Part shown: piece after piece, positions 24,634 through 44,982 of the stretch | Position numbering within the stretch: position 1 is the first letter of the stretch | How the letters are laid out: each line of letters begins with the position of its first letter | Source of the DNA: a virus | DNA length: 64,000 bases | Strand: one strand, 5' to 3' | Virus record (IMG/VR): IMGVR_UViG_3300045988_126562 | Notes under the pieces: generated by a model | Database searches by the model: none | What the model saw: the letters and a program-made list of their open reading frames with translations, nothing else | What the model was told of the DNA's origin: nothing | Position numbers and translations under genes: made by a program

Positions 24634-24699
24634 AGGATTCATATAAACAGTCCAATATATCCCTAATATACTCTAGTTTAAATTTGCTGTAAGAATCCT
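24634..24699 (-). ncRNA. modular RNA unit (mini form)
   Basis: Closing helix AGGATTC/GAATCCT. 5' boundary TTACAGCAAAT, 3' boundary CCTGTAA. Confidence 0.45.
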
Positions 24700-32153: not shown

Positions 32154-32158
32154 ATTTC

Positions 32159-32446: not shown

Positions 32447-32467
32447 AAAGAAACAGATTTTAAGATG

Positions 32468-33200: not shown

Positions 33201-33201
33201 A

Positions 33202-33408: not shown

Positions 33409-33432
33409 GTTTATTTTTGTTTTGCTAATTAG

Positions 33433-33506
33433 AGCCTCCTGTCAGACTCGAACTGACAACATCTTCATTACAAGTGAAGTGCAACTACCAATTGTGCTAA
33501 GGAGGC
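33433..33506 (-). tRNA. tRNA-Thr(UGU)
   Basis: GCCTCCT/AGGAGGC acceptor, loop CTTGTAA, T loop TTCGAGT. Confidence 0.85.
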
Positions 33507-34318: not shown

Positions 34319-34350
34319 CTTTAATTTAAAATTTTTGTTGTTATAAAAAC

Positions 34351-34480
34351 AAGTTAGTTTTACCAGAATAGGACTCGAACCTATAACCTCTTGATAAAAT
34401 TCAAGGCTCTACCAATTGAGCTATACGTCTCTGGATTTAAGTTGGTAGACGTAAATTTTTTATATTGCTGTTCCTAACTT
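34351..34480 (-). ncRNA. modular RNA unit with tRNA-like domain (non-canonical order)
   Basis: Closing helix AAGTTAG/CTAACTT and boundary GAACAGCAAT. Inside: acceptor-type hairpin TACGTCT..AGACGTA, D arm TA-GCTC-AATTGGTA-GAGC, hairpin CTTGA-ATTTTA-TCAAG, T arm ATAGG-TTCGAGT-CCTAT. Confidence 0.45.
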
Positions 34481-34641
34481 TATGTAATAAAAAATATGTA
34501 GAACAACGACTTAACATAAAAGCATAAGGACTTTTAGTCCAAAATCTAAGCTCCTTAAATTTGAATTTCTACAAATATTCCACTTTTTACGAGTTACATT
34601 TATCCTTGCCAGGCTAGGGTCAAAATATTTTATTTAAACAG

Positions 34642-34845
34642 TTAATCCCAATACCATATTTCTCTGCTCATAGCAAATCTCATAGATATTTTACCTTCTA
34701 AAGTCTTGAACCACTTTTTATGTCTAAAAAATTGGAATCTGCATTTTCCTTTTCTTCCTCCACAAACTTTATATTTCCATCTTCTGCTATGTGGGTTTCT
34801 TCCAATTTGTTTTCTAGTCATTTTCCATTTTTTACCGTAGCTCAT
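34642..34845 (-). CDS. small basic protein
   Basis: Track ORF 34642..34983 trimmed to Met47 because the upstream codons translate tRNA-Ser. Confidence 0.4.
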   Translation of the reverse strand: MSYGKKWKMTRKQIGRNPHSRRWKYKVCGGRKGKCRFQFFRHKKWFKTLEGKISMRFAMSREIWYWD

Positions 34846-34864
34846 AATTTCATTGATTTGGTAG

Positions 34865-34956
34865 AGGAGGAAGTCGGACTCGAACCGACACATCACTTTT
34901 ACATGATTACTGGGAGTTTTCAAGACTCCTGCCTTACCAATTAGGCTTATTCCTCC
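34865..34956 (-). tRNA. tRNA-Ser(UGA)
   Basis: GGAGGAA/TTCCTCC acceptor, arm GGAGT-CTTGAAA-ACTCC, long variable arm, T arm GTCGG-TTCGAGT-CCGAC. Confidence 0.85.
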
Positions 34957-35044
34957 ATTTGTGGACTCAACCGTAGTCCACATGGTGCGATAAGTGTTTT
35001 ATATTTTGCAGGGGCGCACTTTCCACTAACCCCGAACGGTAATT

Positions 35045-35344
35045 TTATGCCGCATACTCAAGTATACCTTCTCTTATTAAGTCTTTAGATTTTTGTCTTT
35101 CCTTTTTAATTTCTCTGTGATTATCCATTTGATCAGATACATAAGAGTTTGTTACAGCCGTTTTCTTTAATAATTTAGAAAACTTAACTTTATCCAAAAA
35201 ATCTGTAATAGATTCGCATCTTTTTCCTATTCTATTTCTTTTACTTGGATTGTCTTGATACCAGTAAGAGTAAGAATAATAAATTTTTCTAGCTCTTGAT
35301 AGCCATTTTCTTTTGGCTAATTCTCTTCTTTGCTCTCTATTCAT
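35045..35344 (-). CDS. hypothetical basic protein
   Basis: 99-aa ORF. Confidence 0.5.
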   Translation of the reverse strand: MNREQRRELAKRKWLSRARKIYYSYSYWYQDNPSKRNRIGKRCESITDFLDKVKFSKLLKKTAVTNSYVSDQMDNHREIKKERQKSKDLIREGILEYAA

Positions 35345-35369
35345 ATTGATAAAGTTTAAAAAAATTAAC

Positions 35370-35472
35370 AGAAGACTATGCCGACTTGCACTTACGGCTG
35401 GATTTGAACCAGTTTAATTTGAATTTCAGTCAAATTTGTGAACCATTTTATTTGATTTGCTGTAAGTCTTCT
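35370..35472 (-). ncRNA. modular RNA unit with T-loop hairpin
   Basis: Closing helix AGAAGACT/AGTCTTCT. Boundaries TACAGCAAAT and TCTGTTA. Inside: TTTGA-CTGAAAT-TCAAA and CTGG-TTCAAAT-CCAG hairpins. Confidence 0.45.
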
Positions 35473-35480
35473 TATAAATC

Positions 35481-35584
35481 AGGATACCTAAACTCAATTG
35501 TGCTCCAAATAGCAATTCTCCACATTGGTGAATATAAGACTCGAACTTATTATAACTAGTTACTGAATTTGCTGTCTGTATCCT
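35481..35584 (-). ncRNA. modular RNA unit with circularly permuted tRNA-like domain
   Basis: Closing helix AGGATAC/GTATCCT. Order: T arm ATAAG-TTCGAGT-CTTAT, acceptor hairpin ATTCACC-AATGT-GGAGAAT, D arm GCT-ATTTGG-AGC. Confidence 0.55.
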
Positions 35585-35734
35585 TGTTTGATGGATGCCA
35601 GCCGTTTCTATTCCATCATTGCGTACTACGTTGCTGGCTAACGTCTAAGACTTCCATGTCCTCACGTTATCTTAGAATTAGTGTGATTATTATTGCCTAG
35701 CTAATTTCTTAGCTGGGAGGATTACGCTAAAGAG

Positions 35735-35807
35735 TACCCCCAACGGGATTCGAACCCGTGACTTCACATCGAAAGTGTGACGACTTAAACCACTTGTCGA
35801 TAGGGGC
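35735..35807 (-). tRNA. tRNA-Glu(UUC)
   Basis: GCCCCTA/TGGGGGT acceptor, arm TCACA-CTTTCGA-TGTGA, T arm ACGGG-TTCGAAT-CCCGT. Confidence 0.85.
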
Positions 35808-35875
35808 ATATATAGGTTACTAATCTCACGATCCATAACCTATTAAATTTATTATGAACACTTTTTATTGTGTTT

Positions 35876-36973
35876 TTAATCCTGAGGAATACTCATCATA
35901 ATTGTAGCACGATTCCAATTATTTTCCTCATATTGTTGTACTTTATCTCCTTCAGCACTGACTACCAAACGAGATTCCTCTACTCCATATTTTACTAATA
36001 CCTCTTTCACTGATTCAGCTCTCTTTTTACTTAATTCCATATTATATTCTGGAGTTCCTGTATCAGCGTCTGCATATCCAGTAATAGAAATACGTATATC
36101 TTTATTATCCTTCAAATAAGTAGCTATGTTCTCTAAATTTGCCATTTGATCATCAGCTATCTTAGATGAATTGATAGTAAATCTTACTGTAGTAGGAGCC
36201 ACCTCTTTTAAAACAACAATATTTTCTACTGTTACAGTATCAATAGTGGTTACGACCTTTGGAGCTTTTTCACATTCCTGTCTAAGTTTATTGATTTCCT
36301 CATTTAGAGCGTCAATATCCTCTTGATCATAAGATGGGATGTATGTGAATCCTCTAGTCCCATCATGATTTTTAAACTTATATGTGATGCCAGCTGTTAA
36401 ATTACACATTCCATCATATCTAGCTCCTCCTACTACTCCGTCGAACTTATCATTAAGAGCAGACATATTTCCTTCTATATTAAGCTGAATAGATTTAGAT
36501 AGATCAACATTTACCTGAACTCCTACTCTAGGAACTACATAATCTCCTATTGGTAGTACTCCATTATCAAATGTATGTGCATAACCTACTCCTCCTATCA
36601 ATACTAAGTTAACTGGTCTGTCATAATTCTGAGAGAATAAATTTAACGGATTCAGCATTGCATCTAAGTAAAATCCATATCTGTTAATAACAGAAATTTC
36701 ATTTGTAGGAACAACATGATTCTGTCCCCACTCTCCTTGAATACGAGTTCCCAAAACTGGAGTCCAATATTTATTAAGGGAAACATTTACCGTTGGACCA
36801 AAAATTCTCTTTGTGTCCACTGATTTGTAATTATCCCCAAATGTGGCATTAGTTCCAGCTCCTACACTGATAGACCAATTATCAGTGAATTTATACTTCG
36901 GCATTCTTAACTCTTGTGCATTTAAGCACATAACGCTCATAAGAGCAATTAAAAGAAATAATACTTTCTTCAT
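35876..36973 (-). CDS. OmpA-family outer-membrane protein
   Basis: Signal peptide, beta-barrel-like N-terminal half and a C-terminal OmpA-like domain (ITGYADADTGTPEYNMELSKKRAESV). Confidence 0.75.
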   Translation of the reverse strand: MKKVLFLLIALMSVMCLNAQELRMPKYKFTDNWSISVGAGTNATFGDNYKSVDTKRIFGPTVNVSLNKYWTPVLGTRIQGEWGQNHVVPTNEISVINRYGFYLDAMLNPLNLFSQNYDRPVNLVLIGGVGYAHTFDNGVLPIGDYVVPRVGVQVNVDLSKSIQLNIEGNMSALNDKFDGVVGGARYDGMCNLTAGITYKFKNHDGTRGFTYIPSYDQEDIDALNEEINKLRQECEKAPKVVTTIDTVTVENIVVLKEVAPTTVRFTINSSKIADDQMANLENIATYLKDNKDIRISITGYADADTGTPEYNMELSKKRAESVKEVLVKYGVEESRLVVSAEGDKVQQYEENNWNRATIMMSIPQD

Positions 36974-37000
36974 CTTACTTGTTTAATTTAAAAAAAATAT

Positions 37001-37435
37001 TTATATACACTGTAGAAATTTTTCAATTTCCTCAACTATTTTATCATATTCTTCTTTAGATATTTCCTTTGCTATATCACTTTGTCCATAAGTTATATAA
37101 GGATTATTAAACCACAAAGGATTTATATGTCTATGCTTTTCTATAGACACCGAAATTTTATCTCTGCTTTTATACTTTTCATATAAAGTGTACCCAGAAT
37201 CAAAGTTTCTACTGTTTTGCTCAAATAGAGATTTGTCTATATAAACAAATCCAGTAACTTCAAAATTGAATTTCAGAATAAAATATTTCCCTATTAGATT
37301 TTCATACCATTTATTTTTATTTTCTTCTAGCTGCTCTAATTCTTTCTTTCTTTTCTTAGATTCCTCTTCTTCAGCTTCAATATATTCTTTTAGAGAGGCA
37401 TCTGGATGTATTCTGTAATAATCTTTCACATTCAT
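37001..37435 (-). CDS. hypothetical protein
   Basis: 144-aa ORF. Confidence 0.55.
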   Translation of the reverse strand: MNVKDYYRIHPDASLKEYIEAEEEESKKRKKELEQLEENKNKWYENLIGKYFILKFNFEVTGFVYIDKSLFEQNSRNFDSGYTLYEKYKSRDKISVSIEKHRHINPLWFNNPYITYGQSDIAKEISKEEYDKIVEEIEKFLQCI

Positions 37436-37456
37436 AGTAAAAATTCATTAATATTG

Positions 37457-37528
37457 TGGACACGGCGGGACTCGAACCCGATCCTCCTGAGTGCAAATCA
37501 AGCGCATTCCCAATTATGCTACCGGCCC
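37457..37528 (-). tRNA. tRNA-Ala(UGC)
   Basis: GGGCCGG 5' end with a G3:U70 pair, loop TTTGCAC, T loop TTCGAGT. Two mismatches in the acceptor stem. Confidence 0.7.
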
Positions 37529-37541
37529 ATAAAGCTGGATT

Positions 37542-37895
37542 TTACACCAGCAAAAGATCTTCTTCATTAGGAATATCCAGCACTATTGGATCAATTCCGA
37601 AATCAGAATACTCTATAATACTCATTGGAAGCCAACAGTTAGGTAAACAATCAAGATCTACCCTAAAAGAAGAATCACTAGTATCTACTTCTTCAATATC
37701 AGATAGTGTTAAAGGTGTAGATAATTCTAGAATATCAACATCTATACCTACTTCTTCGTCTTCATGTTCAAGCTCACAGCCTGCATATTCCCAACCTTCT
37801 TCTAATAATTCTTCCTCTGTCTTGATTCTAAATTTTCCAGATTCAATCAAAGCCAGAAATTCCGTTTCATTCAGATCTTTAACTTTCTTTCTCAT
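37542..37895 (-). CDS. hypothetical acidic protein with C-terminal EEDLLLV
   Basis: Track ORF 37542..37958 trimmed to Met22 because the upstream codons translate a tRNA. Confidence 0.5.
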   Translation of the reverse strand: MRKKVKDLNETEFLALIESGKFRIKTEEELLEEGWEYAGCELEHEDEEVGIDVDILELSTPLTLSDIEEVDTSDSSFRVDLDCLPNCWLPMSIIEYSDFGIDPIVLDIPNEEDLLLV

Positions 37896-37916
37896 ATTTA
37901 TAATATTGTGAATTTG

Positions 37917-38003
37917 CGCACGCGGAAGGGTTCGAACCTTCGATGGGGCTTTCGCCACGGTAGATTAACAGTCTACTGCCTTCGACCACTCGGCCACACG
38001 TAC
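37917..38003 (-). tRNA. tRNA with GUU anticodon on a class II (Ser-like, long variable arm) scaffold
   Basis: GTACGTG/CGCGTGC acceptor, Ser-type D arm GCC-GAGTGGTCGAA-GGC, arm GTAGA-CTGTTAA-TCTAC, 18-nt variable arm, T arm GAAGG-TTCGAAC-CCTTC, discriminator G. Confidence 0.75.
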
Positions 38004-38010
38004 TAGTAAC

Positions 38011-38076
38011 AGAATACTTTGTTTAGCTTGATAATTTAAAAGATTATTGCTTAAAATAAATTGCTGTAAGTATTCT
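38011..38076 (-). ncRNA. modular RNA unit (mini form)
   Basis: Closing helix AGAATACTT/AAGTATTCT. Boundaries ACAGCAAT and TCTGTTA. Confidence 0.45.
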
Positions 38077-38081
38077 TATAC

Positions 38082-38205
38082 AGATAACCATTGTTTTATA
38101 AACTGGCGCTCTACCAACTGAGCTATTACTAAGGCACTTCTTAGTAAATGAGGCTCGAACTCATGACTTCTAGTTGGGACAAACATAATTTGCTGTCGGT
38201 TATCT
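38082..38205 (-). ncRNA. modular RNA unit with circularly permuted tRNA-like domain
   Basis: Closing helix AGATAACC/GGTTATCT. Order: ACTAG-AAGTC-ATGAG-TTCGAGC-CTCAT, acceptor hairpin TTACTAA-GAAGTGCC-TTAGTAA, D arm TA-GCTC-AGTTGGTA-GAGC, then CCAGT. Confidence 0.6.
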
Positions 38206-38227
38206 AAATATTATTAACTTAACCGAG

Positions 38228-38302
38228 TAGGCTGCCCCAGATTTGAACTGGGAACCTTCTGAGTATCAGTCAGATGCTCTGACCAAGTTGAGCTAACAGC
38301 CT
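38228..38302 (-). tRNA. tRNA-Ile(GAU)
   Basis: AGGCTGT/GCAGCCT acceptor, loop CTGATAC, T loop TTCAAAT. Confidence 0.85.
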
Positions 38303-38309
38303 ATCTTCA

Positions 38310-38513
38310 TCAAGGAATATACTCCCTGATATTTCCTATTGCTACTTCACATTCTGAAGATGCAATATGTTTAGAATAATTAGCATCTTTTGCTAATGCT
38401 TCTCTACAATCTCTATCACAAGGGAACTTCGAGCATTCAAGTCTGCAAGTTCCTAAAAGCCTGCTGTGGTGAGATTTATCCCAAATCCACACGTCAAAAA
38501 TAAAATGTCTCAT
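38310..38513 (-). CDS. hypothetical Cys-rich protein
   Basis: 67-aa ORF. Confidence 0.45.
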   Translation of the reverse strand: MRHFIFDVWIWDKSHHSRLLGTCRLECSKFPCDRDCREALAKDANYSKHIASSECEVAIGNIREYIP

Positions 38514-38533
38514 TTTGCCAATATTTAAAGTTT

Positions 38534-38824
38534 TTATTTATATTTTTCTTTCCATTTTTCGCATTTGCGTTTCACTGACTTACCAAGTAAAGAAGGAAAT
38601 TCATCACCATACGTTAATCTTCCCAAATCTACTATATTTATTAATGTGTCTGCTAATTCATCACACAAATCCATTTCATTTATTTTCTTATAGCTAGATA
38701 ATCCTGTGATAGTACTGATAGCTCCCATCACTTCTCCAGACTCTTCTGCCAGTTTAATCGCAACATCCTGTATAGTCCTCCCATTTTTAATAGAAGAGCC
38801 TACTTCCATAATTTCTTTGATCAT
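38534..38824 (-). CDS. MazG-like nucleotide pyrophosphohydrolase (small)
   Basis: 96 aa. KLAEESGEVMGAI ... CDELADTLINIVDL matches the EExGE...ExxD pattern. Confidence 0.55.
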   Translation of the reverse strand: MIKEIMEVGSSIKNGRTIQDVAIKLAEESGEVMGAISTITGLSSYKKINEMDLCDELADTLINIVDLGRLTYGDEFPSLLGKSVKRKCEKWKEKYK

Positions 38825-39093
38825 TCTTCGATTATTCCTTTTTTAGGTACTGGTATTTTTACTATCCCAGTTCCATTACATGTTTCACATTCTGTTTCAT
38901 CACATAGTAAGCCCATCCCTAACGTACAAATGGCTAATCCAGCTTTCTGGCCCGTACTCATTTCTACACTCCCTGTTCCTTTACATTTTGGACAAATTTC
39001 TTCTACATATTGTCTTTTTGGAGTAGTTGGATTACTATGTGGGCAGTTTCCTGTACAGGAAACAGATAACAGGATAAATAACAAATATTTCAT
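38821..39093 (-). CDS. lipoprotein with DnaJ-type CxxCxGxG zinc-finger repeats
   Basis: Lipobox-like LLSVSC; CPKCKGTG and CETCNGTG. Confidence 0.5.
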   Translation of the reverse strand: MKYLLFILLSVSCTGNCPHSNPTTPKRQYVEEICPKCKGTGSVEMSTGQKAGLAICTLGMGLLCDETECETCNGTGIVKIPVPKKGIIEE

Positions 39094-39488
39094 ATTAATT
39101 TCAAATATAATGGTTTGTCTTTATTTTTTGCTACTTTAAATCCAATAGGAATTAGGGATCTTTCATATATTCTTCTAAGTCTATTGTTAGCTGGATATAC
39201 CAATAATACTTTTCCCTTTAAAAAATTCTTCCATATGTTATTGTTAATAAAGTTCATTAAACATTGTTTAGCCCAAGATAATGACTTCATTCCATCCTTT
39301 CCAACTATTAAGTTTTCTTGAAATCCATTCTTTCGTTTAGTAGCAATGTAAAAGGTGACGTTCATAAACCCTGGTTTTTTATATATTTCATAGATTTCCA
39401 AAGTTATTATTTGTCCATATTCATTCTTAGATTTGTAATAATATGAGTTTACATGCTCTCTATCTTTTTGTAGATCAATATCATACAT
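39090..39488 (-). CDS. hypothetical protein
   Basis: 132-aa ORF. Confidence 0.55.
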   Translation of the reverse strand: MYDIDLQKDREHVNSYYYKSKNEYGQIITLEIYEIYKKPGFMNVTFYIATKRKNGFQENLIVGKDGMKSLSWAKQCLMNFINNNIWKNFLKGKVLLVYPANNRLRRIYERSLIPIGFKVAKNKDKPLYLKLI

Positions 39489-39493
39489 ATTAA

Positions 39494-39970
39494 CTATCTA
39501 TTATTAATAATGTAATTTAGAGTTCCTTTACTAGAAATATTGTATTTATACATTAACTCCTTATAAGACATTCCATTTTGCCTATCCATTTGTATTTTAA
39601 GTACAGTGTCATCAGAGTATTTTTTATTAGCATTTGAAGATTTTTCTTGTCTTACTTTTTCTGAAATATCCATCATATTATCGGAACTCGTACCAATGTC
39701 TATATTTGAAATAGAATTATTTAGTAGGTTTCCATCTAAATGCCTAACTACTATATTATCATTATATATTTTTTCTCCGAATTTGCTATATGCTTGGAAT
39801 CTATGAAAATAAACTTTTATGATTTTTCCTTCTATTCTAAATGAAAAATATTTGTATTTACTCTTACCACTAGTTCCTACTGATTTATTATGTTTATTAT
39901 AAACTATTCCATCAGGAGTTATTGTATAACCTCTTTCTTTAGCTACTATTTCAAATTTACTGTAATCCAT
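39494..39970 (-). CDS. free-standing HNH (HNH_3-type) homing endonuclease
   Basis: FHRFQAY...VVRHLDGNLLNNSISNIDIGTSSDN plus a C-terminal HTH-like tail. Ends in TAG; lies next to tRNA-fMet. Confidence 0.65.
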   Translation of the reverse strand: MDYSKFEIVAKERGYTITPDGIVYNKHNKSVGTSGKSKYKYFSFRIEGKIIKVYFHRFQAYSKFGEKIYNDNIVVRHLDGNLLNNSISNIDIGTSSDNMMDISEKVRQEKSSNANKKYSDDTVLKIQMDRQNGMSYKELMYKYNISSKGTLNYIINNR

Positions 39971-40033
39971 GTATTATTAATAGAATTAGTTGATTATCCA
40001 GCTACACCACGTGGAGGTTTCTATTATGTAGCC

Positions 40034-40105
40034 TTGCGGAGGCAGGATTCGAACCTGCGACTTTCAGCTTATGAGGCTGACGAGCTACCTCTGCTCTACT
40101 CCGCG
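40034..40105 (-). tRNA. initiator tRNA-fMet(CAU)
   Basis: C1xA72 mismatch (CGCGGAG/CTCCGCA), loop CTCATAA, and close overall resemblance to the bacterial initiator layout. Confidence 0.8.
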
Positions 40106-40333
40106 ATGTTTGGTAGCTAATTTATATCCGCTACCCAGGGATATCTCTCTTACCAGTGAGACACGGACTCTTCTAACCGTAGAGCACGGCTGGTTACTGA
40201 CGCTCCAGACACGGCATTTAGACTGAAAATGTCGAAACAGTAATTGAAAGCCTACAATGGGAGGTCATTACTCTCCCACTTTCTAGTTGTTACCCTAGAT
40301 GTGCAATTCTACACCACATTGTGTCTTTCCTAG
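40106..40333 (-). ncRNA. unassigned structured RNA candidate (228 nt)
   Basis: G+C-rich and ORF-free, filling the exact gap between two tRNAs. Hairpins GGGAGAG..CTCCC and GGTAGC..GCTACC. Confidence 0.4.
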
Positions 40334-40405
40334 AGTCGGTAATGGGAATCGAACCCACATCTCCAGTTTGGAAGACTGGAGCACTAACCGTTGTGCTATA
40401 CCGAC
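40334..40405 (-). tRNA. tRNA-Gly(UCC)
   Basis: GTCGGTA/TACCGAC acceptor, loop CTTCCAA, discriminator U. Confidence 0.85.
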
Positions 40406-40490
40406 GATTTAATTAGTTTATAAACTGAAACGCACACTACTACTATGAAAGAAAACAATATAGACCATAAAAATACTCTAAACAGAAATA

Positions 40491-40736
40491 TTAACCATTC
40501 CATACTTTTCCAGATCGTATTTTAGAATATACTTTACTTAAAGCTTCATTTTTATATTTTGTAAGTTTCATTCTAGTTATAGCATTTGCAAATTCAGTTG
40601 GTCCCACCTTACTATAGAAATGAAAAGAACCATCTTTCCACTGAACCACAATTATAGAGCCTACTTTATAGGCTGTTTTAATTGGGCTTTTGAATGAGAA
40701 TTTAATATAAGATTTAATCTTGTTTATAACATTCAT
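40491..40736 (-). CDS. hypothetical protein
   Basis: 81-aa ORF. Confidence 0.5.
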   Translation of the reverse strand: MNVINKIKSYIKFSFKSPIKTAYKVGSIIVVQWKDGSFHFYSKVGPTEFANAITRMKLTKYKNEALSKVYSKIRSGKVWNG

Positions 40737-40751
40737 ATTAATAACAATTTG

Positions 40752-40826
40752 TGCTCCTTGTAAGATTCGAACTTACGACCACTTGAATGTAAGTCAAGCA
40801 CTCTAAACCAACTGAGCTAAAGGAGC
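40752..40826 (-). tRNA. tRNA-Val(UAC)
   Basis: GCTCCTT/AAGGAGC acceptor, loop CTTACAT, T loop TTCGAAT. Confidence 0.85.
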
Positions 40827-40834
40827 GATTAAGC

Positions 40835-40992
40835 AAGAGACCACCTTTTTTATTTGTTTTAAATCCAGGCTAAACTACTAACTTCTAGGTATTTCAGAAA
40901 GTTAGATAAGGATTCGAACCTTATTTCTTTGTCTAATTGAAATTTAATTAAAACTATAAAGATTAAGAAAATAATCTTGCTGTATGTCTCTT
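40835..40992 (-). ncRNA. modular RNA unit with circularly permuted tRNA-like domain
   Basis: Closing helix AAGAGAC/GTCTCTT and boundary ATACAGCAAG. Order: T arm TAAGG-TTCGAAT-CCTTA, extended acceptor hairpin TCTAACT..AGTTAGT, D arm TTTA-GCCTGGATT-TAAA. Confidence 0.55.
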
Positions 40993-41001
40993 TATAATAA
41001 C

Positions 41002-41119
41002 AGAAGACCTTTAAATACGTTGCTCTACCAATTGAGCTAAAATGAGTAAACTCATCTACAGGACTCGAACCTATAACCCACGGCTTACCAGGCTAAATAT
41101 ATATTGCTGCTAGTCTTCT
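41002..41119 (-). ncRNA. modular RNA unit: circularly permuted tRNA-Thr(GGU)-like gene
   Basis: Closing helix AGAAGAC/GTCTTCT. Order: GC-CTGGTAA-GCCGT-GGGTT-ATAGG-TTCGAGT-CCTGT-AGATGAG-T-TTA-CTCATTT-TA-GCTC-AATTGGTA-GAGC-A-ACG. Confidence 0.65.
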
Positions 41120-41125
41120 TTTACT

Positions 41126-41279
41126 TGGGAGAATTTCCTATCTCCCGCAATAAAGTGCTAAGGTATCATAATGAAATGAGGCTCAGCGGTTTCGACTTTA
41201 CTAGGATAGTTCACGATGTTTTGGCAATCATCTAACTATTGTCAACCTATTATTATGCCAAATTGTAGTTGACTTGTTG
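41126..41279 (-). ncRNA. unassigned structured RNA candidate
   Basis: Hairpins GGGAGA..TCTCCC, GTCAAC..GTTGAC and TTGGCA..TGCCAA. No ORF. Confidence 0.3.
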
Positions 41280-41352
41280 GGGAGAAGCTAAGAATCGAAC
41301 TTAGTCCTTTATATCCACAGTATAACGTTCTAGCCGTTAAACTACAACTCCC
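41280..41352 (-). tRNA. tRNA-His(GUG) with encoded G-1
   Basis: G(-1) opposite C73, loop CTGTGGA, T arm CTAAG-TTCGATT-CTTAG. Two U-U mismatches in the acceptor. Confidence 0.75.
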
Positions 41353-41537
41353 ATTTATATTGAAATGAAAACGACAGTTCTGCAAGAGGAAGAAAAGGTA
41401 GCTTACCTATTTATGATAGGTAATATACCCGTAGGAAGCATTCTGGGATCCATTTTCTCTAAGAATTTCCCAATTTTCCTAATTACTTTCTTCATAAACT
41501 GTAAAAATTTAGTTAAACATATAATTTATCTATGTAG

Positions 41538-41610
41538 CCGAAAGCGGGGGACTCGAACCCCAAACTCCACAGTGACAGTGTGGTATTATGCCAATTTCAC
41601 TACGCCTCCG
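41538..41610 (-). tRNA. tRNA-Asp(GUC)
   Basis: CGGAGGC/GCTTTCG acceptor (two G:U pairs), arm CCACA-CTGTCAC-TGTGG, discriminator G. Confidence 0.75.
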
Positions 41611-41722
41611 TTGTTGTAGCATCTATCCTCACGAACCAATGCTACTTTTATTTATTATCATGGCAAAATGATATACTTCACCTCAAAGTTTGATATTTCT
41701 ATCAGGGACAATGAGGGATTTG

Positions 41723-41816
41723 TGGGCCGAGAGAGATTCGAACTCCCCTACCGCAAAGTCCATACGACTATTTGTTAAAGCGGGGTGGATTTACAGTCCA
41801 CTGCCGTTATCGACCC
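41723..41816 (-). tRNA. atypical 94-nt tRNA-like gene with Tyr (GUA) anticodon arm
   Basis: GGGTCGA/TCGGCCC acceptor, perfect arm GTGGA-CTGTAAA-TCCAC, T arm GGGAG-TTCGAAT-CTCTC. Only 8 nt stand where the D arm should be, and the variable insert is ~35 nt. Confidence 0.5.
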
Positions 41817-41824
41817 ATTAATAC

Positions 41825-41891
41825 AGAGTGCAAAGATAGTTATTTTATTCCCAATAATAAAATTTAAATTGTTAATTGCTGTTAACACTCT
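41825..41891 (-). ncRNA. modular RNA unit (mini form)
   Basis: Closing helix AGAGTG/CACTCT. Boundaries TTAACAGCAAT and TCTGTAT. Confidence 0.4.
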
Positions 41892-41900
41892 TATTTTTAC

Positions 41901-41963
41901 AGAAACCTTTTGTGGTTATGTTCATTAATGGTAAACATTTATAAAATTTGCTGTTAGGCTTCT
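41901..41963 (-). ncRNA. modular RNA unit (mini form)
   Basis: Closing helix AGAAGCC/GGTTTCT. Boundaries TAACAGCAAAT and TCTGTAA. Confidence 0.4.
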
Positions 41964-42018
41964 TGTTTTTGGATTTATGCCTTATAGTGTCTTATAATTT
42001 TATTAGCTTCCGAATTAC

Positions 42019-42126
42019 GGGGCACTCTTCCACTTTTTATTATTTATATTCTACTATAATACATAAATCCGATAATTTAAATTAAAAGTAATGATAGATG
42101 TATGAAAAATTTGCTGTTTGTGCCCC
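42019..42126 (-). ncRNA. modular RNA unit (AT-rich insert)
   Basis: Closing helix GGGGCAC/GTGCCCC. Boundaries AAACAGCAAAT and CCCGTAA. Confidence 0.4.
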
Positions 42127-42147
42127 AAACGTCATCAAGATAATTTG

Positions 42148-42223
42148 TAGGGTAAGCGGGATTCGAACCCGCGATCTCTTGCTCCCAAAGCAAGCGCCCT
42201 AGACCGGACTGGACCACTACCCT
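42148..42223 (-). tRNA. tRNA-Pro(UGG)
   Basis: AGGGTAG/TTACCCT acceptor, arm CTTGC-TTTGGGA-GCAAG, T arm GCGGG-TTCGAAT-CCCGC. The 5' end overlaps the upstream TAG stop. Confidence 0.85.
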
Positions 42224-42911
42224 ATTGTTTATTTGTATAAACTTTAGCCTTGTCTACTATATTTCGTAAATCTGAAAACGAAGAAGCTTGCTCTATAAGC
42301 CAACCAAAATATACTTTTCTTTGTTTACTCATATTATTCTCTATTAGCTTATCTATTCTGTCACTAGTCTTAAGTTTCATCAAAGTGGACTTAGTTTCTT
42401 TAAAGCGGGCATCTATAATATCAGAAAGTTCTTTTTTCATTGCATTCTTTCTCTCTTGTAAAGATGCGCCAGAAATAGCAAATGCTGTCCTCACCTTTTT
42501 CTTTTCTCTATTAGTAAGACGACTAACGTCAAAACCATTATCAATAAGAAATTGATCATTATTTATATTAGCACTCCAAGATGCCACTTCTCTATCATCT
42601 ATTTTATTCTCCTCTGGCACATTAAGCAAAGTACTTAGAGTAGAATTAAATTTCTTTGCTGTTTTCAATAAGAGTAAGACTTCTGAATATGTGCAAAGTT
42701 GTACTGTTCTGCCCCAACAAACAGTGTATAGATTTTTCCGGTTGTTATGAGTAAGAATATATAAATGATTACTATGACAGGCCATTTCATTACTTGTATG
42801 ATCACTAACTCTCACTCTAAGCATTCCTATTACAAAGTATTCAGAGTTAGTATTTTGAGCCTTACTAGATTTAGAAGAAAGCTTTCTTAAAGCGTCATAA
42901 ATTTTGTCCAT
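42222..42911 (-). CDS. hypothetical protein
   Basis: 229-aa ORF ending in TAG, between the Ro-like gene and the RNA array. Confidence 0.55.
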   Translation of the reverse strand: MDKIYDALRKLSSKSSKAQNTNSEYFVIGMLRVRVSDHTSNEMACHSNHLYILTHNNRKNLYTVCWGRTVQLCTYSEVLLLLKTAKKFNSTLSTLLNVPEENKIDDREVASWSANINNDQFLIDNGFDVSRLTNREKKKVRTAFAISGASLQERKNAMKKELSDIIDARFKETKSTLMKLKTSDRIDKLIENNMSKQRKVYFGWLIEQASSFSDLRNIVDKAKVYTNKQ

Positions 42912-42926
42912 GATAATTTATATTAC

Positions 42927-42944
42927 GGGAGTCCGAAGACTCCC
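42927..42944 (-). terminator. strong hairpin (terminator/attenuator candidate)
   Basis: GGGAGTC-TTCG-GACTCCC immediately after the stop of 42950..44653. Confidence 0.45.
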
Positions 42945-42949
42945 AATTA

Positions 42950-44653
42950 CTAAATTGTTATCAGATTTAACAGTTCCTGATTCATAGCTGCCTCAAACAA
43001 CTCTCTAGCTGTTTTAGGTGTACTAGGTTCAGGATTTTCTGGAGTAGGTTCTTGTCCTAAAAGAAAAGCAATTCCTGAAGGATCTAAACCTCCCATATAG
43101 AAGAATCCCGGAGTATCTGCATACCCCTCGAATTTAGGTCTAATTTCTCTGCTGTAGGAACTGTTAGGTATATCCCACAGAACAATCTTGAAATCATCAA
43201 CATAGTCTTTAGGGAATCCAGCGTCTAGCAACTTTTTCTTGAATAAGGCAAAGTTCGTCTTTGATTCTTGTGTAGAATCTTGATAGCCATATCCATAATA
43301 TGACTGCCCTCTGTTAAATTCTCCATCGCTTACACATAACAATCCTTTTGGGAACTGATTAATAGGAGTTCCTTTTCTGAAAATTTCGACAAATAAGTCA
43401 GCGATTCCTAAGAAGTTAGTACTTCCATAAGATTCTGCCCTATCATTGAAATACTTCTCAGTAGGAGTTTTACCATTCCACAATCTCAATGTAGGTTTGC
43501 TAGCAAACTCCACATATCCACTCGCAAATGGCCCTTCTAACAAGTAAGAGAAGTAGAGAGCAATAGCTTTGGCAACGTCGTTACTTGATACATTAGTCCC
43601 ATTTACATTTGAACTCATAGACCCAGAGGTATCTCTCGCAACTAAGAAAGTTGACTTAGTATTCATTCCTTTCTTTGCTGTTTCAATAAGTCCTCCAAAC
43701 TGTTTATCTACAGTCATTTTCTTGTAAGTAGGACTATTATATTCAATTCCTTTGAATAACTCATATACATATCCAGTAAACTTGGCTACTGGTTGTTTTA
43801 GAATCCATTCTTCGTATGCGGTTTCTAAGTTATTATTCTTTAGGAAATTTCCAGAAACTAGCAAAGCCAGAGCACGACCATGCACAGTAGAAAAGTTTAT
43901 ATTCAACTTTCCCCTTGAGATTTGCTGTTGCCATTGATGAGCCGTTCCTGACACTTTCAATTGACGATATTGCTTATAGTTGAGAGAGTGATACTGGTCA
44001 GCCTTAAACTGTCCCTTACCAAACAATCTATGTGCAATATACTTTCCAATAATCGTATCCGCCTGTGCTTCCAAAGTACGGGCTTTAGAACGAGCTTTAA
44101 TAGTAGGAAGATATTTCTTTACTAAATTGCAAGTATTAGGATTTTCCAGACCAGCTAGAATAAAATCACCTAATGCTTTCCAATCTAGCACTTTTCCTTT
44201 CCACCCATGAAATTGAATATCATAGGACATCATTTGGAAAATATCCTTCCAACAACCAGCTGCTACAAACAAAGGAAGATTGTTATAGAATACTTCAGGG
44301 TAATTTATAGCCACCCAAATCATTCTCATAATCCCTTCATGCTTCATTCCCTGCCCTCGCTGAACAGAAGTGGTTTCTGAACCATCTAATAATTCAACCT
44401 TTCGAGTTACCAAACGAATATAGAATACCAATTTCATTGCATCAAGCTGATTGATATTCCATAATGTACGCATATCCTTATCAATATCAGCATAAGGACG
44501 CAACTGCCTGTACTGAGAAATTAAAGAAAACTGGTCTGTAAATGGATCTCCTGTAGAAGTTAATTTTACAGCACCATTGCCACTCAAAGTGATTTCTGCA
44601 ATACTCTTTACTGGTTCGTTGCCAAACAGATAGCTTTGTTTCTTGTCAAACAT
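42950..44653 (-). CDS. Ro60-like architecture protein: helical N-terminal domain + C-terminal vWA (MIDAS)
   Basis: 567 aa. N-terminal STGDPFTDQF...MKLVFYIRL...GCWKDIF pattern, which I recall from DUF2828-type proteins. C-terminal VARDTSGSMSS DxSxS MIDAS motif. Confidence 0.55.
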   Translation of the reverse strand: MFDKKQSYLFGNEPVKSIAEITLSGNGAVKLTSTGDPFTDQFSLISQYRQLRPYADIDKDMRTLWNINQLDAMKLVFYIRLVTRKVELLDGSETTSVQRGQGMKHEGIMRMIWVAINYPEVFYNNLPLFVAAGCWKDIFQMMSYDIQFHGWKGKVLDWKALGDFILAGLENPNTCNLVKKYLPTIKARSKARTLEAQADTIIGKYIAHRLFGKGQFKADQYHSLNYKQYRQLKVSGTAHQWQQQISRGKLNINFSTVHGRALALLVSGNFLKNNNLETAYEEWILKQPVAKFTGYVYELFKGIEYNSPTYKKMTVDKQFGGLIETAKKGMNTKSTFLVARDTSGSMSSNVNGTNVSSNDVAKAIALYFSYLLEGPFASGYVEFASKPTLRLWNGKTPTEKYFNDRAESYGSTNFLGIADLFVEIFRKGTPINQFPKGLLCVSDGEFNRGQSYYGYGYQDSTQESKTNFALFKKKLLDAGFPKDYVDDFKIVLWDIPNSSYSREIRPKFEGYADTPGFFYMGGLDPSGIAFLLGQEPTPENPEPSTPKTARELFEAAMNQELLNLITI

Positions 44654-44667
44654 TGTTTTATCTAATT

Positions 44668-44982
44668 TTATATTAAAAGTAAATATTCTTCATCATAACT
44701 TACAGAATCTGCAGAAGAGATTCCCAATTCCAAAACAAAATCATTCAGTGAACCAATTGTTACTCTTCTGTTTAGATCTGTCCACCTCCATTCCTCCGCA
44801 AATTTTCTAGAACCTGTAAGATAACTAGGCTCACATCCCGGAATTACAAGTACTGTTATTCCTTTTTCAAACCTGTTTTCTCCGATGTGTTCAAATCTTC
44901 TAAGTTTTAACTTAGTTTCTCTGATTTCCTCAAGATATTCAAATTCTTTCTTATCTCTACAATAAACAGCTTCTATAATCAT
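44668..44982 (-). CDS. hypothetical protein with C-terminal EEYLLLI
   Basis: Track ORF 44668..45078 trimmed to Met33 because the upstream codons translate tRNA-Leu. Confidence 0.5.
   Translation of the reverse strand: MIIEAVYCRDKKEFEYLEEIRETKLKLRRFEHIGENRFEKGITVLVIPGCEPSYLTGSRKFAEEWRWTDLNRRVTIGSLNDFVLELGISSADSVSYDEEYLLLI

What the first reader, a model, noticed from the sequence alone, without database searches (positions are those of the whole stretch)
41002..41119. Circularly permuted tRNA-Thr(GGU)-like gene
The unit contains, in this order:
- GC-CTGGTAA-GCCGT (the last two bases of the anticodon-stem 5' strand, a canonical 7-nt loop with U33, A37 and anticodon GGU, then the whole 3' strand)
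- variable GGGTT
- T arm ATAGG-TTCGAGT-CCTGT
- acceptor 3' strand AGATGAG
- T + TTA linker
- acceptor 5' strand CTCATTT
- TA-GCTC-AATTGGTA-GAGC-A
- ACG

Joining the 3' ACG to the 5' GC would recreate a perfect ACGGC/GCCGT anticodon stem and a complete tRNA-Thr. The break point at position 29/30 is flanked on both sides by TATTTA.

I know of permuted tRNA genes from a red alga and some archaea, where a splicing endonuclease and ligase process them. I am not aware of a phage or bacterial precedent. If the RNA is not re-joined, it is a tRNA mimic that retains an anticodon loop.
Basis: partly seen in the sequence, partly recalled or inferred. Interest (0 to 1): 0.8.

Follow-up and report, generated by a model that had tools for sequence, protein, structure and literature searches.

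The report
Phage Y-like RNA mimicking a tRNA
The "circularly permuted tRNA" is real as a sequence pattern, but it is best read as a phage-encoded Y-RNA-like non-coding RNA whose middle imitates a tRNA, one of at least eleven related small RNAs lying near a Ro60-like RNA-binding protein gene.

Summary
On the minus strand (41120..41000) the arms lie in the order anticodon-loop hairpin, V loop, T arm, closed acceptor-like hairpin, D arm, ACG. When de-permuted, ARAGORN calls the sequence tRNA-Thr(GGU).

It is most likely not a tRNA gene awaiting re-ligation. It matches Rfam YrlA (Y RNA-like) locally. It lies 1.8 kb downstream of, and on the same strand as, a 567-aa DUF2828/DUF7788 protein whose model matches Ro60/Rsr structures over its full length.

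Its termini form a scaffold, AAG-stem-CUAGCAGCAAU...stem-CUGU. At least 11 modules in the window share this scaffold, most without tRNA features. So do 192 non-redundant modules flanking DUF2828 genes in other phage contigs.

The anticodon-arm mimic is conserved and covaries. It is a composite 5-bp stem (a hairpin plus pairs with the strand after the D arm) with a 7-nt loop of the form Y-U-NNN-A-A. It occurs in 20 of 38 phage elements and 20 of 56 bacterial YrlA-like elements.

The permuted-tRNA resemblance of YrlA and phage Ro60/Y-RNA systems are both published. Three things appear new: the DUF2828 partner, the ACAGCAA scaffold, and the scaffold's close match to Dictyostelium Class I RNAs.

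The parts
41000..41120 (-). Whole predicted RNA module: AAG start, terminal stem, motif, tRNA-like insert, terminal stem, CUGU end.
   Evidence: Sequence, module scan, fold, consensus of 192 modules.
41112..41119 (-). Terminal stem, 5' strand AGAAGACU. It pairs with 41002-41009.
   Evidence: The stem sequence differs in every homolog while pairing is kept.
41002..41009 (-). Terminal stem, 3' strand GGUCUUCU, followed by GU (41001-41000), so the end reads CUGU.
41103..41113 (-). Scaffold motif CUAGCAGCAAU, a variant of the family consensus C-U-U-ACAGCAA-U. It is the presumed protein-binding site.
   Evidence: ACAGCAA occurs 17 times on the minus strand and 0 times on the plus strand. (4-fold enrichment on the gene strand next to DUF2828 genes)..
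41080..41093 (-). Anticodon-arm mimic. Hairpin GC-CUGGUAA-GC is continued by CGU. CGU pairs with ACG 41018-41020 to make a composite 5-bp stem nicked at 29/30.
41018..41020 (-). ACG, equivalent to tRNA positions 27-29. It pairs with CGU 41082-41080.
   Evidence: pairs 41-121, 42-120 and 43-119 of alignment A5 covary.
41058..41079 (-). V loop GGGUU plus T arm AUAGG-UUCGAGU-CCUGU.
   Evidence: U48 pairs with A15; Porthos copy 3 has C48 with G15.
41040..41057 (-). Closed acceptor-like hairpin AGAUGAG-UUUA-CUCAUUU (7 bp).
   Evidence: It is 5-6 bp in the orthologs L126, L211 and L212.
41021..41039 (-). U8-A9, D arm GCUC-AAUUGGUA-GAGC, and A26.
42950..44653 (-). 567-aa Ro60-like protein (DUF2828 + DUF7788, i.e. 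a helical ring-like N-terminal part plus a vWA domain). It is the presumed protein partner.
   Evidence: Pfam and PHROG. AF2 model with Foldseek, where the top 8 hits are all Ro60/TROVE/Rsr. hhalign against a TROVE protein, 84.8%. Profile against PDB, top hits Ro60.
38081..38206 (-). Second YrlA-like module. It has the same scaffold and T-AS-D order but a continuous anticodon-like helix with no hairpin.
   Evidence: CM R1 58.5 bits, sequence, Rfam YrlA 23.6 bits over the full model.
38011..38076 (-). Short scaffold-only module (AGAAUACUU-ACAGCAAU...AAGUAUUCU-GU). It resembles Dictyostelium Class I RNA.
   Evidence: Rfam RF01414 28.9 bits.
34351..34480 (-). Scaffold module whose insert is a tRNA-like domain in native D-AC-V-T order. 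Its D and T arms are nearly identical to those of the finding.
35370..35584 (-). Two tandem scaffold modules (35584..35481 and 35472..35370), each with a T-arm-like hairpin.
40835..40992 (-). Scaffold module immediately 3' of the finding. It contains a T-arm-like hairpin, AAGGUUCGAAUCCUU.
41825..42127 (-). Three more scaffold modules (42127..42018, 41963..41901, 41891..41825), lying between tRNA-Pro and tRNA-Asp.
24634..24699 (-). A further short scaffold module, next to tRNA-Lys.

Best explanation
The element is a phage-encoded, YrlA-type Y-RNA-like non-coding RNA of about 121 nt. It has two modules.

(1) A scaffold formed by its two ends: start AAG, an 8-bp stem, the single-stranded motif CUAGCAGCAAU directly after the 5' strand of the stem, and end CUGU. 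This scaffold is the common denominator of at least 11 RNAs in the window. It is inferred to be the binding site of the phage's Ro60-like DUF2828/DUF7788 protein, encoded 1.8 kb upstream on the same strand.

(2) An effector domain that folds like a tRNA. It comprises a T arm, an acceptor-like stem closed by a loop, a D arm with the nucleotides needed for the tRNA elbow and Levitt pair, and an anticodon-arm mimic. The mimic is a 2-bp hairpin with a 7-nt C-U-NNN-A-A loop stacked on a 3-bp helix formed with the strand after the D arm.

The proposed mechanism rests on analogy with two systems: Ro60/Y RNA/PNPase in Deinococcus and Salmonella, and Thermus phage phiLo Ro60 with Yrl1/2 and host PNPase. 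By that analogy, the RNA would load onto the ring-shaped protein through the scaffold. It would use the tRNA-shaped domain to recruit, or to be handled by, tRNA-recognising host factors, re-targeting RNA turnover or quality control during infection.

Shown here: the anatomy, the covariation, the family, and the genomic linkage to the Ro60-like gene.
Inferred: expression, protein binding, and the effector.
For: - Rfam YrlA local hit at 41015-41082(-): 35.7 bits, E 3.4e-6. The 76%-identical Enterococcus phage copy matches the whole YrlA model at 45.9 bits and lies 325 nt upstream of a DUF2828 'RNA binding protein' gene.
- Partner protein: DUF7788, DUF2828 and phrog_850 'RNA-binding protein'. Foldseek top 8 hits are all Ro60/Rsr/TROVE over 517-588 aligned columns. 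hhalign gives 84.8%. The top hits of the profile search against PDB are Ro60.
- Linkage: a CM of the tRNA-like core gave 148 hits in 90 sources, 89 loci encoding DUF2828-family homologs plus the window. Almost all are on the gene strand and most are within about 1 kb of the gene. ACAGCRA occurs at 0.445/kb on the gene strand, against 0.104/kb on the opposite strand and 0.137/kb in control loci, peaking in the 2 kb upstream of the gene.
- Scaffold family: 11 modules in the window and 192 non-redundant modules elsewhere with the same consensus ends and motif.
- Structure: 98.7% of cells paired and 11 of 14 pairs with compensatory changes.
- Anticodon-arm mimic: found in 20 of 38 phage elements, and preferentially with a 7-nt loop (other loop lengths give 0-7). 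Shuffles give a mean of 4.0, sd 1.8, maximum 12 of 38. U33 is present in 18 of 20 and A37 and A38 in 17 of 20 each.
- Literature: YrlA lies next to Ro60 on the same strand within 4 kb, including in phages, and M. smegmatis YrlA is cut by RNase P (PMC4201824). YrlA 'resemble circularly permuted tRNAs' (10.1101/312249). Phage Ro60 binds phage Yrl RNAs and host PNPase (PMC12135203).
Against: - The Rfam YrlA score (35.7) is far below the gathering score (69), and only model positions 23-88 match.
- The canonical Ro-binding motif GNCGAAN0-1G is absent.
- The partner is not recognised by Pfam TROVE. Its link to Ro60 rests on a medium-quality model (pLDDT 64.8, TM about 0.3) and on weak profile hits.
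- Three tRNA genes and a 229-aa ORF lie between the protein gene and the RNA.
- No expression, binding or processing data exist.
- A 2-bp hairpin is thermodynamically marginal on its own. The MFE z-score of the whole element is only -1.29.
Confidence: 0.72

Rival explanations
1. It is a genuine circularly permuted tRNA gene. The precursor's paired ends are cut, the ACG and GC ends are ligated into a circle, the acceptor loop is opened by RNase P/Z, and CCA is added. The product is a functional tRNA-Thr(GGU).
For: - The de-permuted sequence is a perfect ARAGORN tRNA-Thr(GGU) with a 7-bp acceptor stem.
- Orthologs de-permute to tRNA-Thr(UGU).
- The window has tRNA-Thr(UGU) but no GGU isoacceptor.
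- The YrlA literature raises this possibility.
Against: - The same termini flank inserts with no tRNA features.
- The nick position and the 'anticodon' vary among homologs, including non-cognate-looking AUG.
- The acceptor-like stem is 5-6 bp in the closest orthologs.
- The junction shows no bulge-helix-bulge.
- No ligase or splicing endonuclease was recognised in the window.
- Such processing is unknown in bacteria (10.1101/312249).
Confidence: 0.04
2. It is a two-piece tRNA-like RNA. As with M. smegmatis YrlA, RNase P cuts 5' of CUCAUUU and the new 3' end is trimmed and receives CCA. The two halves stay paired and bound to the Ro-like protein, and the product may even be charged.
For: - The acceptor-like stem here is exactly 7 bp, which is the determinant named for RNase P cleavage of M. 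smegmatis YrlA.
- The anticodon mimic carries G35-U36 both here and in three orthologs.
Against: - The 7-bp stem is not conserved; the orthologs have 5-6 bp and loops of only 3-4 nt.
- S. Typhimurium YrlA and D. radiodurans Yrn1 are not cleaved.
- No experiment has been done.
Confidence: 0.12
3. It is a decoy. The tRNA-shaped domain, with its exposed anticodon-type loop, titrates host tRNA-targeting defence nucleases or other tRNA-binding factors, alongside the phage's 26 tRNA genes.
For: - The 7-nt Y-U-NNN-A-A loop is conserved while the triplet varies widely.
- The element is embedded in a large phage tRNA array.
Against: - The same anticodon-arm mimic occurs in 20 of 56 bacterial YrlA-like elements, so it is not a phage-specific counter-defence invention.
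- Neither the partner protein nor its neighbour matches PADLOC.
- The idea is purely inferential.
Confidence: 0.08
4. It is a non-functional relic of a tandem tRNA duplication (T arm of one copy, D arm of the next).
For: - A dimeric-tRNA origin has been proposed for YrlA.
- Other phage loci hold tandem tRNA-like genes with ACAGCAA inserts.
Against: - Compensatory changes occur in all helices across 11 elements from distant phages.
- The element is conserved at 76% identity between a gut phage contig and Enterococcus phages.
- Its position next to the Ro60-like gene is consistent.
Confidence: 0.03

Closest known systems
YrlA (Y RNA-like A; Rfam RF02553) of Salmonella, Mycobacterium smegmatis and mycobacteriophages
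   Same: - T arm, closed acceptor-like stem-loop, then D arm.
- Conserved elbow nucleotides and a covarying Levitt pair.
- The 5' and 3' ends pair into a protein-binding stem.
- Encoded on the same strand within 4 kb of a Ro60-type gene.
- Often lies among tRNA genes.
- Already described as resembling a circularly permuted tRNA.
   Different: - GNCGAAN0-1G is replaced by a (C)UUACAGCAA-type motif.
- The partner is a DUF2828/DUF7788 protein rather than a Pfam-TROVE Rsr.
- The score is about half the Rfam gathering score.
- S. Typhimurium YrlA 'lacks the anticodon loop'. This element carries a composite anticodon arm, a feature I also find in 20 of 56 bacterial YrlA-like elements.
Thermus phage phiLo Ro60 with Yrl1/Yrl2 (PDB 9KOP, 9L5Y; PMC12135203)
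   Same: - A phage-encoded Ro60-type ring protein with several Y-like RNA genes beside its gene.
- 9KOP is among the top Foldseek hits of the window protein.
   Different: - The phiLo RNAs carry the CGAA motif and, as described, no tRNA-like domain.
- Only two RNAs are reported there, against at least 11 here.
- That protein is a recognisable TROVE protein.
Circularly permuted tRNA genes (Cyanidioschyzon merolae, other algae, one archaeon)
   Same: - The 3' half lies upstream of the 5' half.
- The acceptor is initially closed.
- The ends are paired.
- De-permutation gives a perfect cloverleaf.
   Different: - No bulge-helix-bulge junction.
- The break lies within the anticodon stem, at varying positions.
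- The ends belong to a scaffold shared with non-tRNA RNAs.
- No splicing endonuclease or ligase is known or seen.
Dictyostelium Class I RNAs (Rfam RF01414; PMC7919456)
   Same: - The scaffold has every feature used to define the class: start AAG, a short stem joining the 5' and 3' ends, an 11-nt motif CCUUACAGCAA directly after the 5' stem strand, a variable remainder, and end CUGU.
- Sister modules of 63-67 nt fall within or just above the 42-65-nt size range.
- The best phage hit scores 39.3 bits against a gathering score of 41.5.
   Different: - Class I RNAs are known only from dictyostelid nuclei, with a DUSE promoter.
- They have no tRNA-like insert.
- The finding itself is 121 nt and its motif differs at 2 of 11 positions.
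- Homology versus convergence is untested.
Deinococcus radiodurans Yrn1
   Same: A Ro-bound Y RNA with a T-arm-like module and a 5-bp 'anticodon arm'. The window's module 34480..34351 has the same native order of D and T arms.
   Different: Yrn1 has a 6-nt loop, no full D arm, and a metazoan-like Ro-binding helix.

Membership tests
YrlA / bacterial Y RNA (RF02553; Chen et al. 2014) | A T stem-loop 5' of a D stem-loop, with a closed acceptor-like stem-loop between them. | tested here: met
   CM R1 scores 72.2 bits.
YrlA / bacterial Y RNA (RF02553; Chen et al. 2014) | tRNA tertiary-interaction nucleotides conserved (G18G19, T-loop UUCGA, U8/A14, covarying Levitt pair 15:48). | tested here: met
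   Sequence. A15:U48 here, against G15:C48 in Porthos copy 3, L211 and L212.
YrlA / bacterial Y RNA (RF02553; Chen et al. 2014) | Encoded within about 4 kb of a Ro60 ortholog and on the same strand. | tested here: inconclusive
   Distance and strand are met: 1.83 kb, minus strand. The protein is Ro60-like by fold and by profile. It is not a Pfam TROVE match.
YrlA / bacterial Y RNA (RF02553; Chen et al. 2014) | GNCGAAN0-1G motif near the 5' end. | tested here: not met
   The motif here is CUAGCAGCAAU. The family consensus is C-W-W-ACAGCAA.
YrlA / bacterial Y RNA (RF02553; Chen et al. 2014) | Reaches the Rfam gathering score (69 bits). | tested here: not met
   35.7 bits, model positions 23-88 only.
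YrlA / bacterial Y RNA (RF02553; Chen et al. 2014) | Bound by the Ro60-type protein in vivo. | not testable with these tools
   Needs RIP or EMSA.
Circularly permuted tRNA gene | A 3' half upstream of a 5' half, with de-permutation giving a canonical cloverleaf. | tested here: met
   ARAGORN calls tRNA-Thr(GGU), 76 nt.
Circularly permuted tRNA gene | A bulge-helix-bulge (or equivalent) junction, with a splicing endonuclease and ligase available. | tested here: not met
   The junction is an 8-bp stem plus asymmetric linkers of 20 and 8 nt. No such enzyme was recognised in the window. The rest of the phage genome was not examined.
Circularly permuted tRNA gene | Break position, anticodon and 7-bp acceptor stem conserved in orthologs, as expected for a decoding tRNA. 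| tested here: not met
   The nick varies between 2+3, 3+2 and 4+1. The triplets vary. The acceptor-like stem is 5-6 bp in orthologs.
Circularly permuted tRNA gene | A mature re-joined tRNA is detected. | not testable with these tools
   Needs tRNA-seq or junction RT-PCR.
Dictyostelium Class I RNA (RF01414) | A short stem joining the 5' and 3' ends, with conserved ends AAG and CUGU. | tested here: met
   41120-41118 reads AAG and 41003-41000 reads CUGU. Consensus of 192 modules. Definition in PMC7919456.
Dictyostelium Class I RNA (RF01414) | An 11-nt motif, CCUUACAGCAA, directly after the 5' stem strand. | tested here: met
   The finding has CUAGCAGCAAU. Its last 10 nt match the Rfam consensus CUUACAGCAAU at 9 of 11 positions. 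Against the published 11-nt motif CCUUACAGCAA, the finding's ACUAGCAGCAA (41114-41104) matches at 8 of 11. Sister modules carry the exact CUUACAGCAA.
Dictyostelium Class I RNA (RF01414) | Length 42-65 nt and reaches the Rfam gathering score (41.5 bits). | tested here: not met
   The finding is 121 nt. The best window module scores 28.9 bits. The best phage module scores 39.3 bits (L002). None reached the gathering score in 13 loci.
Dictyostelium Class I RNA (RF01414) | Dictyostelid nuclear gene with an upstream DUSE element. | tested here: not met
   The context is a phage contig.
tRNA (RF00005) | A contiguous cloverleaf detected by tRNA models. | tested here: not met
   No ARAGORN call. Rfam tRNA scores 14.9 bits against a gathering score of 29.

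The most novel reading that the evidence does not exclude
The scaffold that carries this tRNA mimic is the same RNA device as the Dictyostelium Class I RNAs. Those are abundant, developmentally regulated RNAs of unknown function that were thought unique to dictyostelids. Their missing protein partner would be a DUF2828/DUF7788 protein, that is, a divergent Ro60.

If so, phages, some bacteria and social amoebae would share a second Ro60/Y-RNA-type ribonucleoprotein system. In this system the ACAGCAA scaffold docks varied effector inserts, including complete permuted tRNA mimics with an anticodon arm.

One concrete lead: the unknown-function protein DDB_G0281243, pulled down with Class I RNA DdR-21, might be that partner.
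Probability: 0.3. Interest if true: 0.85.

Novelty: new variant of a known kind. Interest (0 to 1): 0.55.

Why it matters
- It replaces an exotic reading (the first permuted tRNA gene in a phage) with a documented class, the tRNA-mimicking Y RNAs. This guards against a false claim.
- It extends that class. A large protein family without annotated function (DUF2828/DUF7788; 1482 homologs at E<1e-5 among the candidates scored) gains a fold-level assignment (Ro60-like) and a candidate RNA ligand family. These RNAs are numerous and unannotated in gut phage contigs, a cultured cyanophage (Lbo-JY46) and Enterococcus Schiekvirus phages.
- It shows that many YrlA-type RNAs, bacterial as well as phage, imitate the anticodon arm as well as the elbow. 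That narrows the search for their unknown effector to factors that read whole tRNAs.
- The scaffold's match to Dictyostelium Class I RNAs offers a directly testable hypothesis for RNAs whose function is still unknown.

Tried and rejected
- Sigma-70 promoter and intrinsic terminator scans of 40700-44800 gave nothing above shuffles. The RNAs are probably processed from a long tRNA-array transcript.
- The TATTTA direct repeat at the break is not conserved in orthologs, so I treat it as AT-rich chance.
- 'Thr identity': the window has GGU and three orthologs have UGU, so G35U36 is kept. This is a single third-position-type change, and other homologs carry UCU, GUU, UGA, AUG and more. It is not significant.
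- Sequence-only search of the 567-aa protein against PDB found nothing. Only the fold and profile searches reached Ro60.
- PADLOC and NCBIfam gave no hit for the partner or its 229-aa neighbour.
- Pfam on 40 window ORFs found no RtcB/Rnl ligase, splicing endonuclease, CCA-adding enzyme or PNPase.
- No phage module reaches the gathering score of RF01414 or RF02553.
- MAFFT misaligned the terminal stems and acceptor hairpins, so these were judged by direct parsing instead.
- One element counted as carrying the anticodon-arm mimic (L200:4161) turned out to be the junction of two native-order tRNA-like genes. Removing it gives 19 of 37.
- I could not obtain Avesson et al. 2011, the Sim et al. 2020 review, or any Dictyostelium protein sequence.
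Full report
**1. What is there**

The window's minus strand carries 26 tRNA genes and a tmRNA. The finding lies among them, between tRNA-His and tRNA-Val, and neither tRNA finder calls it.

Read on the minus strand, it runs:
- AAG, then AGAAGACU
- CUAGCAGCAAU motif, then linker AUAUAUUUA
- GC-CUGGUAA-GC-CGU
- V loop GGGUU
- T arm AUAGG-UUCGAGU-CCUGU
- AGAUGAG-UUUA-CUCAUUU
- UA, then D arm GCUC-AAUUGGUA-GAGC
- A-ACG, then linker UAUUUAAA
- GGUCUUCU, then GU

When I joined ACG to GC and opened the acceptor loop, ARAGORN returned a 76-nt tRNA-Thr(GGU).

**2. What family the core belongs to**

A permissive Rfam scan matched 41015-41082(-) to YrlA, the 'Y RNA-like' family: 35.7 bits, E 3.4e-6, model positions 23-88. 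These positions cover the T arm, closed stem-loop and D arm.

The element is 76% identical over 106 nt to unannotated DNA in 18 Enterococcus phage genomes of about 150 kb (e.g. Porthos, a Schiekvirus). In phage Porthos, three such elements match the whole YrlA model at 29-46 bits. They lie just upstream of a gene annotated 'RNA binding protein'.

Chen et al. 2014 (PMC4201824) defined YrlA by four features:
- tRNA-like T, acceptor-like and D elements in this permuted order;
- a 5' GNCGAAN0-1G motif;
- a position within 4 kb of a Ro60 ortholog, on the same strand;
- presence in 254 bacteria and 22 phages.

Wang et al. (bioRxiv 10.1101/312249) solved the Salmonella domain. [quoted passage not shown] They even discuss the algal permuted tRNA genes.

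**3. The protein partner**

A 567-aa ORF lies 1.83 kb upstream on the same strand (42950-44653).

- It hits DUF7788 (3.8e-8), DUF2828 (2e-4), weakly vWA_Ro60, and PHROG 850 'RNA-binding protein' (7e-26).
- A sequence search of PDB finds nothing.
- An AlphaFold2 model (pLDDT 64.8) gives Ro60 proteins as its eight best Foldseek hits, over 517-588 aligned columns: Xenopus, human, D. radiodurans Rsr and Thermus phage phiLo Ro60 (E 3e-6 to 9e-5). vWA domains follow. TM-scores are low (about 0.3), as expected from a mediocre model.
- A profile of nine family members aligns to a bona fide TROVE+vWA_Ro60 protein at 84.8% probability.
- The same profile's best PDB sequence hits are again Ro60 proteins, though weak (E 0.009-0.1).

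I therefore call the protein Ro60-like. The assignment is by fold and profile, not by Pfam membership.

Phage Ro60 binding phage-encoded Y-like RNAs and host PNPase has been shown experimentally for Thermus phage phiLo (PMC12135203).

**4. Linkage**

I built a covariance model of the tRNA-like core only (A3/R1). I searched 90 sources: 89 loci encoding DUF2828-family homologs, plus the window.

It gave 148 hits. Almost all lie on the strand of the protein gene and most are within about 1 kb of it. Some hits are junctions of tandem tRNAs, and I removed these with ARAGORN.

The search also revealed a second YrlA-like element in the window, at 38103-38174(-), scoring 58.5 bits.

**5. The scaffold**

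All these elements share their ends: a 7-10-bp stem of variable sequence, an ACAGCAA-type motif directly after the 5' strand, and G-U after the 3' strand.

A scan of the window found 11 such modules on the minus strand. In the window, ACAGCAA occurs 17 times on the minus strand and never on the plus strand. Their inserts differ:
- Two carry the permuted tRNA-like domain.
- One carries D and T arms nearly identical to the finding's, but in native order.
- Three carry only a T-arm-like hairpin.
- Five have no tRNA feature.

In 91 loci encoding DUF2828 homologs, ACAGCRA occurs at 0.445/kb on the gene strand. The opposite strand has 0.104/kb and control loci 0.137/kb. The motif peaks in the 2 kb upstream of the gene.

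Across 192 non-redundant modules the consensus is AUAARG-stem-C(U/A)(U/A)ACAGCAA(W)UU ... stem-YYU-GU.

This is the main argument against the permuted-tRNA-gene reading. The ends are a device in their own right, used with many inserts.

**6. The anticodon-arm mimic**

I took 38 non-redundant phage elements, chosen only by their T/acceptor/D core. Twenty have a hairpin of h>=2 bp immediately 5' of the V loop, together with k pairs between the next nucleotides and the strand after N26, where h+k=5. For those twenty the loop is exactly 7 nt. Other loop lengths give 0-7 elements. Shuffled upstream sequence gives 4.0 +/- 1.8 elements (maximum 12 in 2000 shuffles). The loop is C32 (14/20), U33 (18/20), NNN, A37 (17/20), A38 (17/20).

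On 11 full-length elements of the window's 2+3 type, both hairpin pairs flip compensatorily (31:39 is CG in 7 and GC in 4; 30:40 is GC in 10 and CG in 1). Overall, 98.7% of cells pair, against 28-40% for slid controls.

The closest orthologs (protein 65-74% identical) keep the same arrangement, with GC- or GG-CUUGUAA-GC/CC-CGU...ACG.

So it is a general YrlA feature and not a phage novelty. It is probably the 'less-conserved stem-loop V' that Chen et al. drew as a variable arm. Because the hairpin is joined to the 2-3-bp helix with no linker, coaxial stacking into an anticodon-arm shape is plausible, but this is inference.

The Salmonella RNA that was crystallised lacks it.

One of the 20 phage cases (L200:4161) later proved to be a junction between two native-order tRNA-like genes. 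Removing it leaves 19 of 37.

**7. Why not a real permuted tRNA**

In addition to section 5:
- The nick position varies (27/28 to 29/30).
- The triplet varies (GGU, UGU, UCU, GUU, UGA, GAA, UUU, AUG and others).
- The acceptor-like stem is 7 bp here but 5-6 bp, with 3-4-nt loops, in the nearest orthologs.
- The junction has no bulge-helix-bulge.
- Pfam recognised no RNA ligase, splicing endonuclease or CCA-adding enzyme among 40 ORFs of the window.

I leave 4% for this reading. I give 12% to the milder variant in which RNase P opens the 7-bp stem, as it does in M. smegmatis YrlA.

**8. Likely mechanism**

Shown:
- anatomy, covariation, multi-copy family and linkage to a Ro60-like gene.

Inferred from the Deinococcus/Salmonella RYPER work and the phiLo study:
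- The modules are cut out of the long tRNA-array transcript. No promoter or terminator signal was found.
- The scaffold docks on the Ro60-like ring.
- The variable inserts select partners.
- For this RNA, the tRNA-shaped insert, now including an anticodon arm, is handled by host tRNA-recognising factors.

A decoy role against tRNA-targeting defences is possible but unsupported.

**9. An unexpected resemblance**

The short modules match Rfam RF01414, Dictyostelium Class I RNA:
- 39.3 bits (gathering score 41.5; E 2e-4 in a 21-kb search, 4e-6 in a 451-nt search) for a module directly after the DUF2828 gene of Leptolyngbya phage Lbo-JY46;
- 26.2 and 30.7 bits for two of its neighbours (a third scores 19.2, E 0.53);
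- 26.0 and 28.9 bits in the window.

Kjellin et al. 2021 (PMC7919456) define Class I RNAs by a short 5'/3' stem, an 11-nt motif next to the 5' strand, a variable remainder, start AAG and end CUGU. They conclude that the class is unique to dictyostelids. The phage consensus has all of these features.

No phage module reaches the gathering score. I could not test whether dictyostelids encode DUF2828. Papers in the library mention the domain only in plants and a tardigrade.

One protein pulled down with Class I RNA DdR-21, DDB_G0281243, has unknown function. I could not obtain its sequence or the original paper. This is therefore a lead, not a result.

**10. Verdict**

The element is a divergent member of a known kind (tRNA-mimicking Y RNA of a Ro60-type system). 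It has a different scaffold motif, a different (DUF2828) protein family and a documented anticodon-arm mimic. Interest is moderate for the finding itself. It would be higher if the Class I RNA/DUF2828 connection holds.

Noticed in passing
window 24634-42127, minus strand (11 modules; coordinates in 'parts'): A multi-copy family of unannotated small-RNA modules (AAG-stem-CUUACAGCAA-insert-stem-CUGU) is interspersed with the tRNA genes, often as tandem pairs about 9 nt apart. ACAGCAA occurs 17 times on the minus strand and 0 times on the plus strand.
   Followed up: yes
L002 (Leptolyngbya phage Lbo-JY46, PP438436) 6924-7275; window 38010-38075 and 35369-35471: Short modules score just under Rfam's threshold for Dictyostelium Class I RNA (best 39.3 against 41.5 bits). 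They share its start, stem, 11-nt motif and end. That class is published as unique to dictyostelids.
   Followed up: partly
window 34351-34480 (-): A scaffold module whose insert has D and T arms nearly identical to those of the finding, but in native tRNA order (D-AC-V-T), with a 6-nt anticodon-type loop and no proper acceptor stem. Rfam tRNA gives a partial hit of 34.7 bits.
   Followed up: partly
L200 4212-4330 and 4532-4649; similar long tRNA hits in L162, L178, L170, L150: Other DUF2828-encoding phage contigs carry tandem native-order tRNA-like genes of 110-130 nt, each with a 34-39-nt insert reported by ARAGORN at the anticodon region. In L200 4212-4330, the one read in sequence, the insert holds the ACAGCAA motif. 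This suggests the same architecture with the chain ends at the acceptor rather than at the extended anticodon arm.
   Followed up: partly
L213-L332 (bacterial genomes): Bacterial YrlA-like elements fall into motif classes. Many carry GCGAAUGC. Others, including Chitinophaga, Flavobacterium, Pontibacter and Hymenobacter but also a Hyphomonadaceae MAG, carry GUUACUUCG. Twenty of 56 have the composite 5-bp/7-nt anticodon-arm mimic.
   Followed up: partly
window 23577-23648 (-): A tRNA with anticodon CUA, which ARAGORN labels 'Pyl'. It is a possible amber suppressor and hints at TAG recoding in this phage.
   Followed up: no
window 25251-25594 (-): A phage-encoded tmRNA (tag GKNNAISFSREIDEVRIAA) lies within the tRNA array. 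Related contigs (L001, L129, L132) also carry tmRNA near their DUF2828 genes.
   Followed up: no
L129 6747-6819 and L130, directly after the DUF2828 gene: A normal tRNA-Thr(UGU) has anticodon loop CUUGUAA, which equals the loop of the YrlA-like orthologs. This is compatible with the tRNA-like domain having descended from a tRNA-Thr.
   Followed up: no
window 42222-42911 (-): A 229-aa ORF lies between the Ro60-like gene and the RNA array. It has no hit in Pfam, PHROG, PADLOC or NCBIfam. Syntenic ORFs of 184-270 aa follow the gene in L126, L208, L209 and L210.
   Followed up: partly
window 31-831, 1103-2053, 29709-30785, 35876-36973 (-): Auxiliary genes: an ADP-ribosylglycohydrolase, a radical-SAM protein, an adenylosuccinate-synthetase-like protein and an OmpA-like beta-barrel protein.
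   Followed up: no
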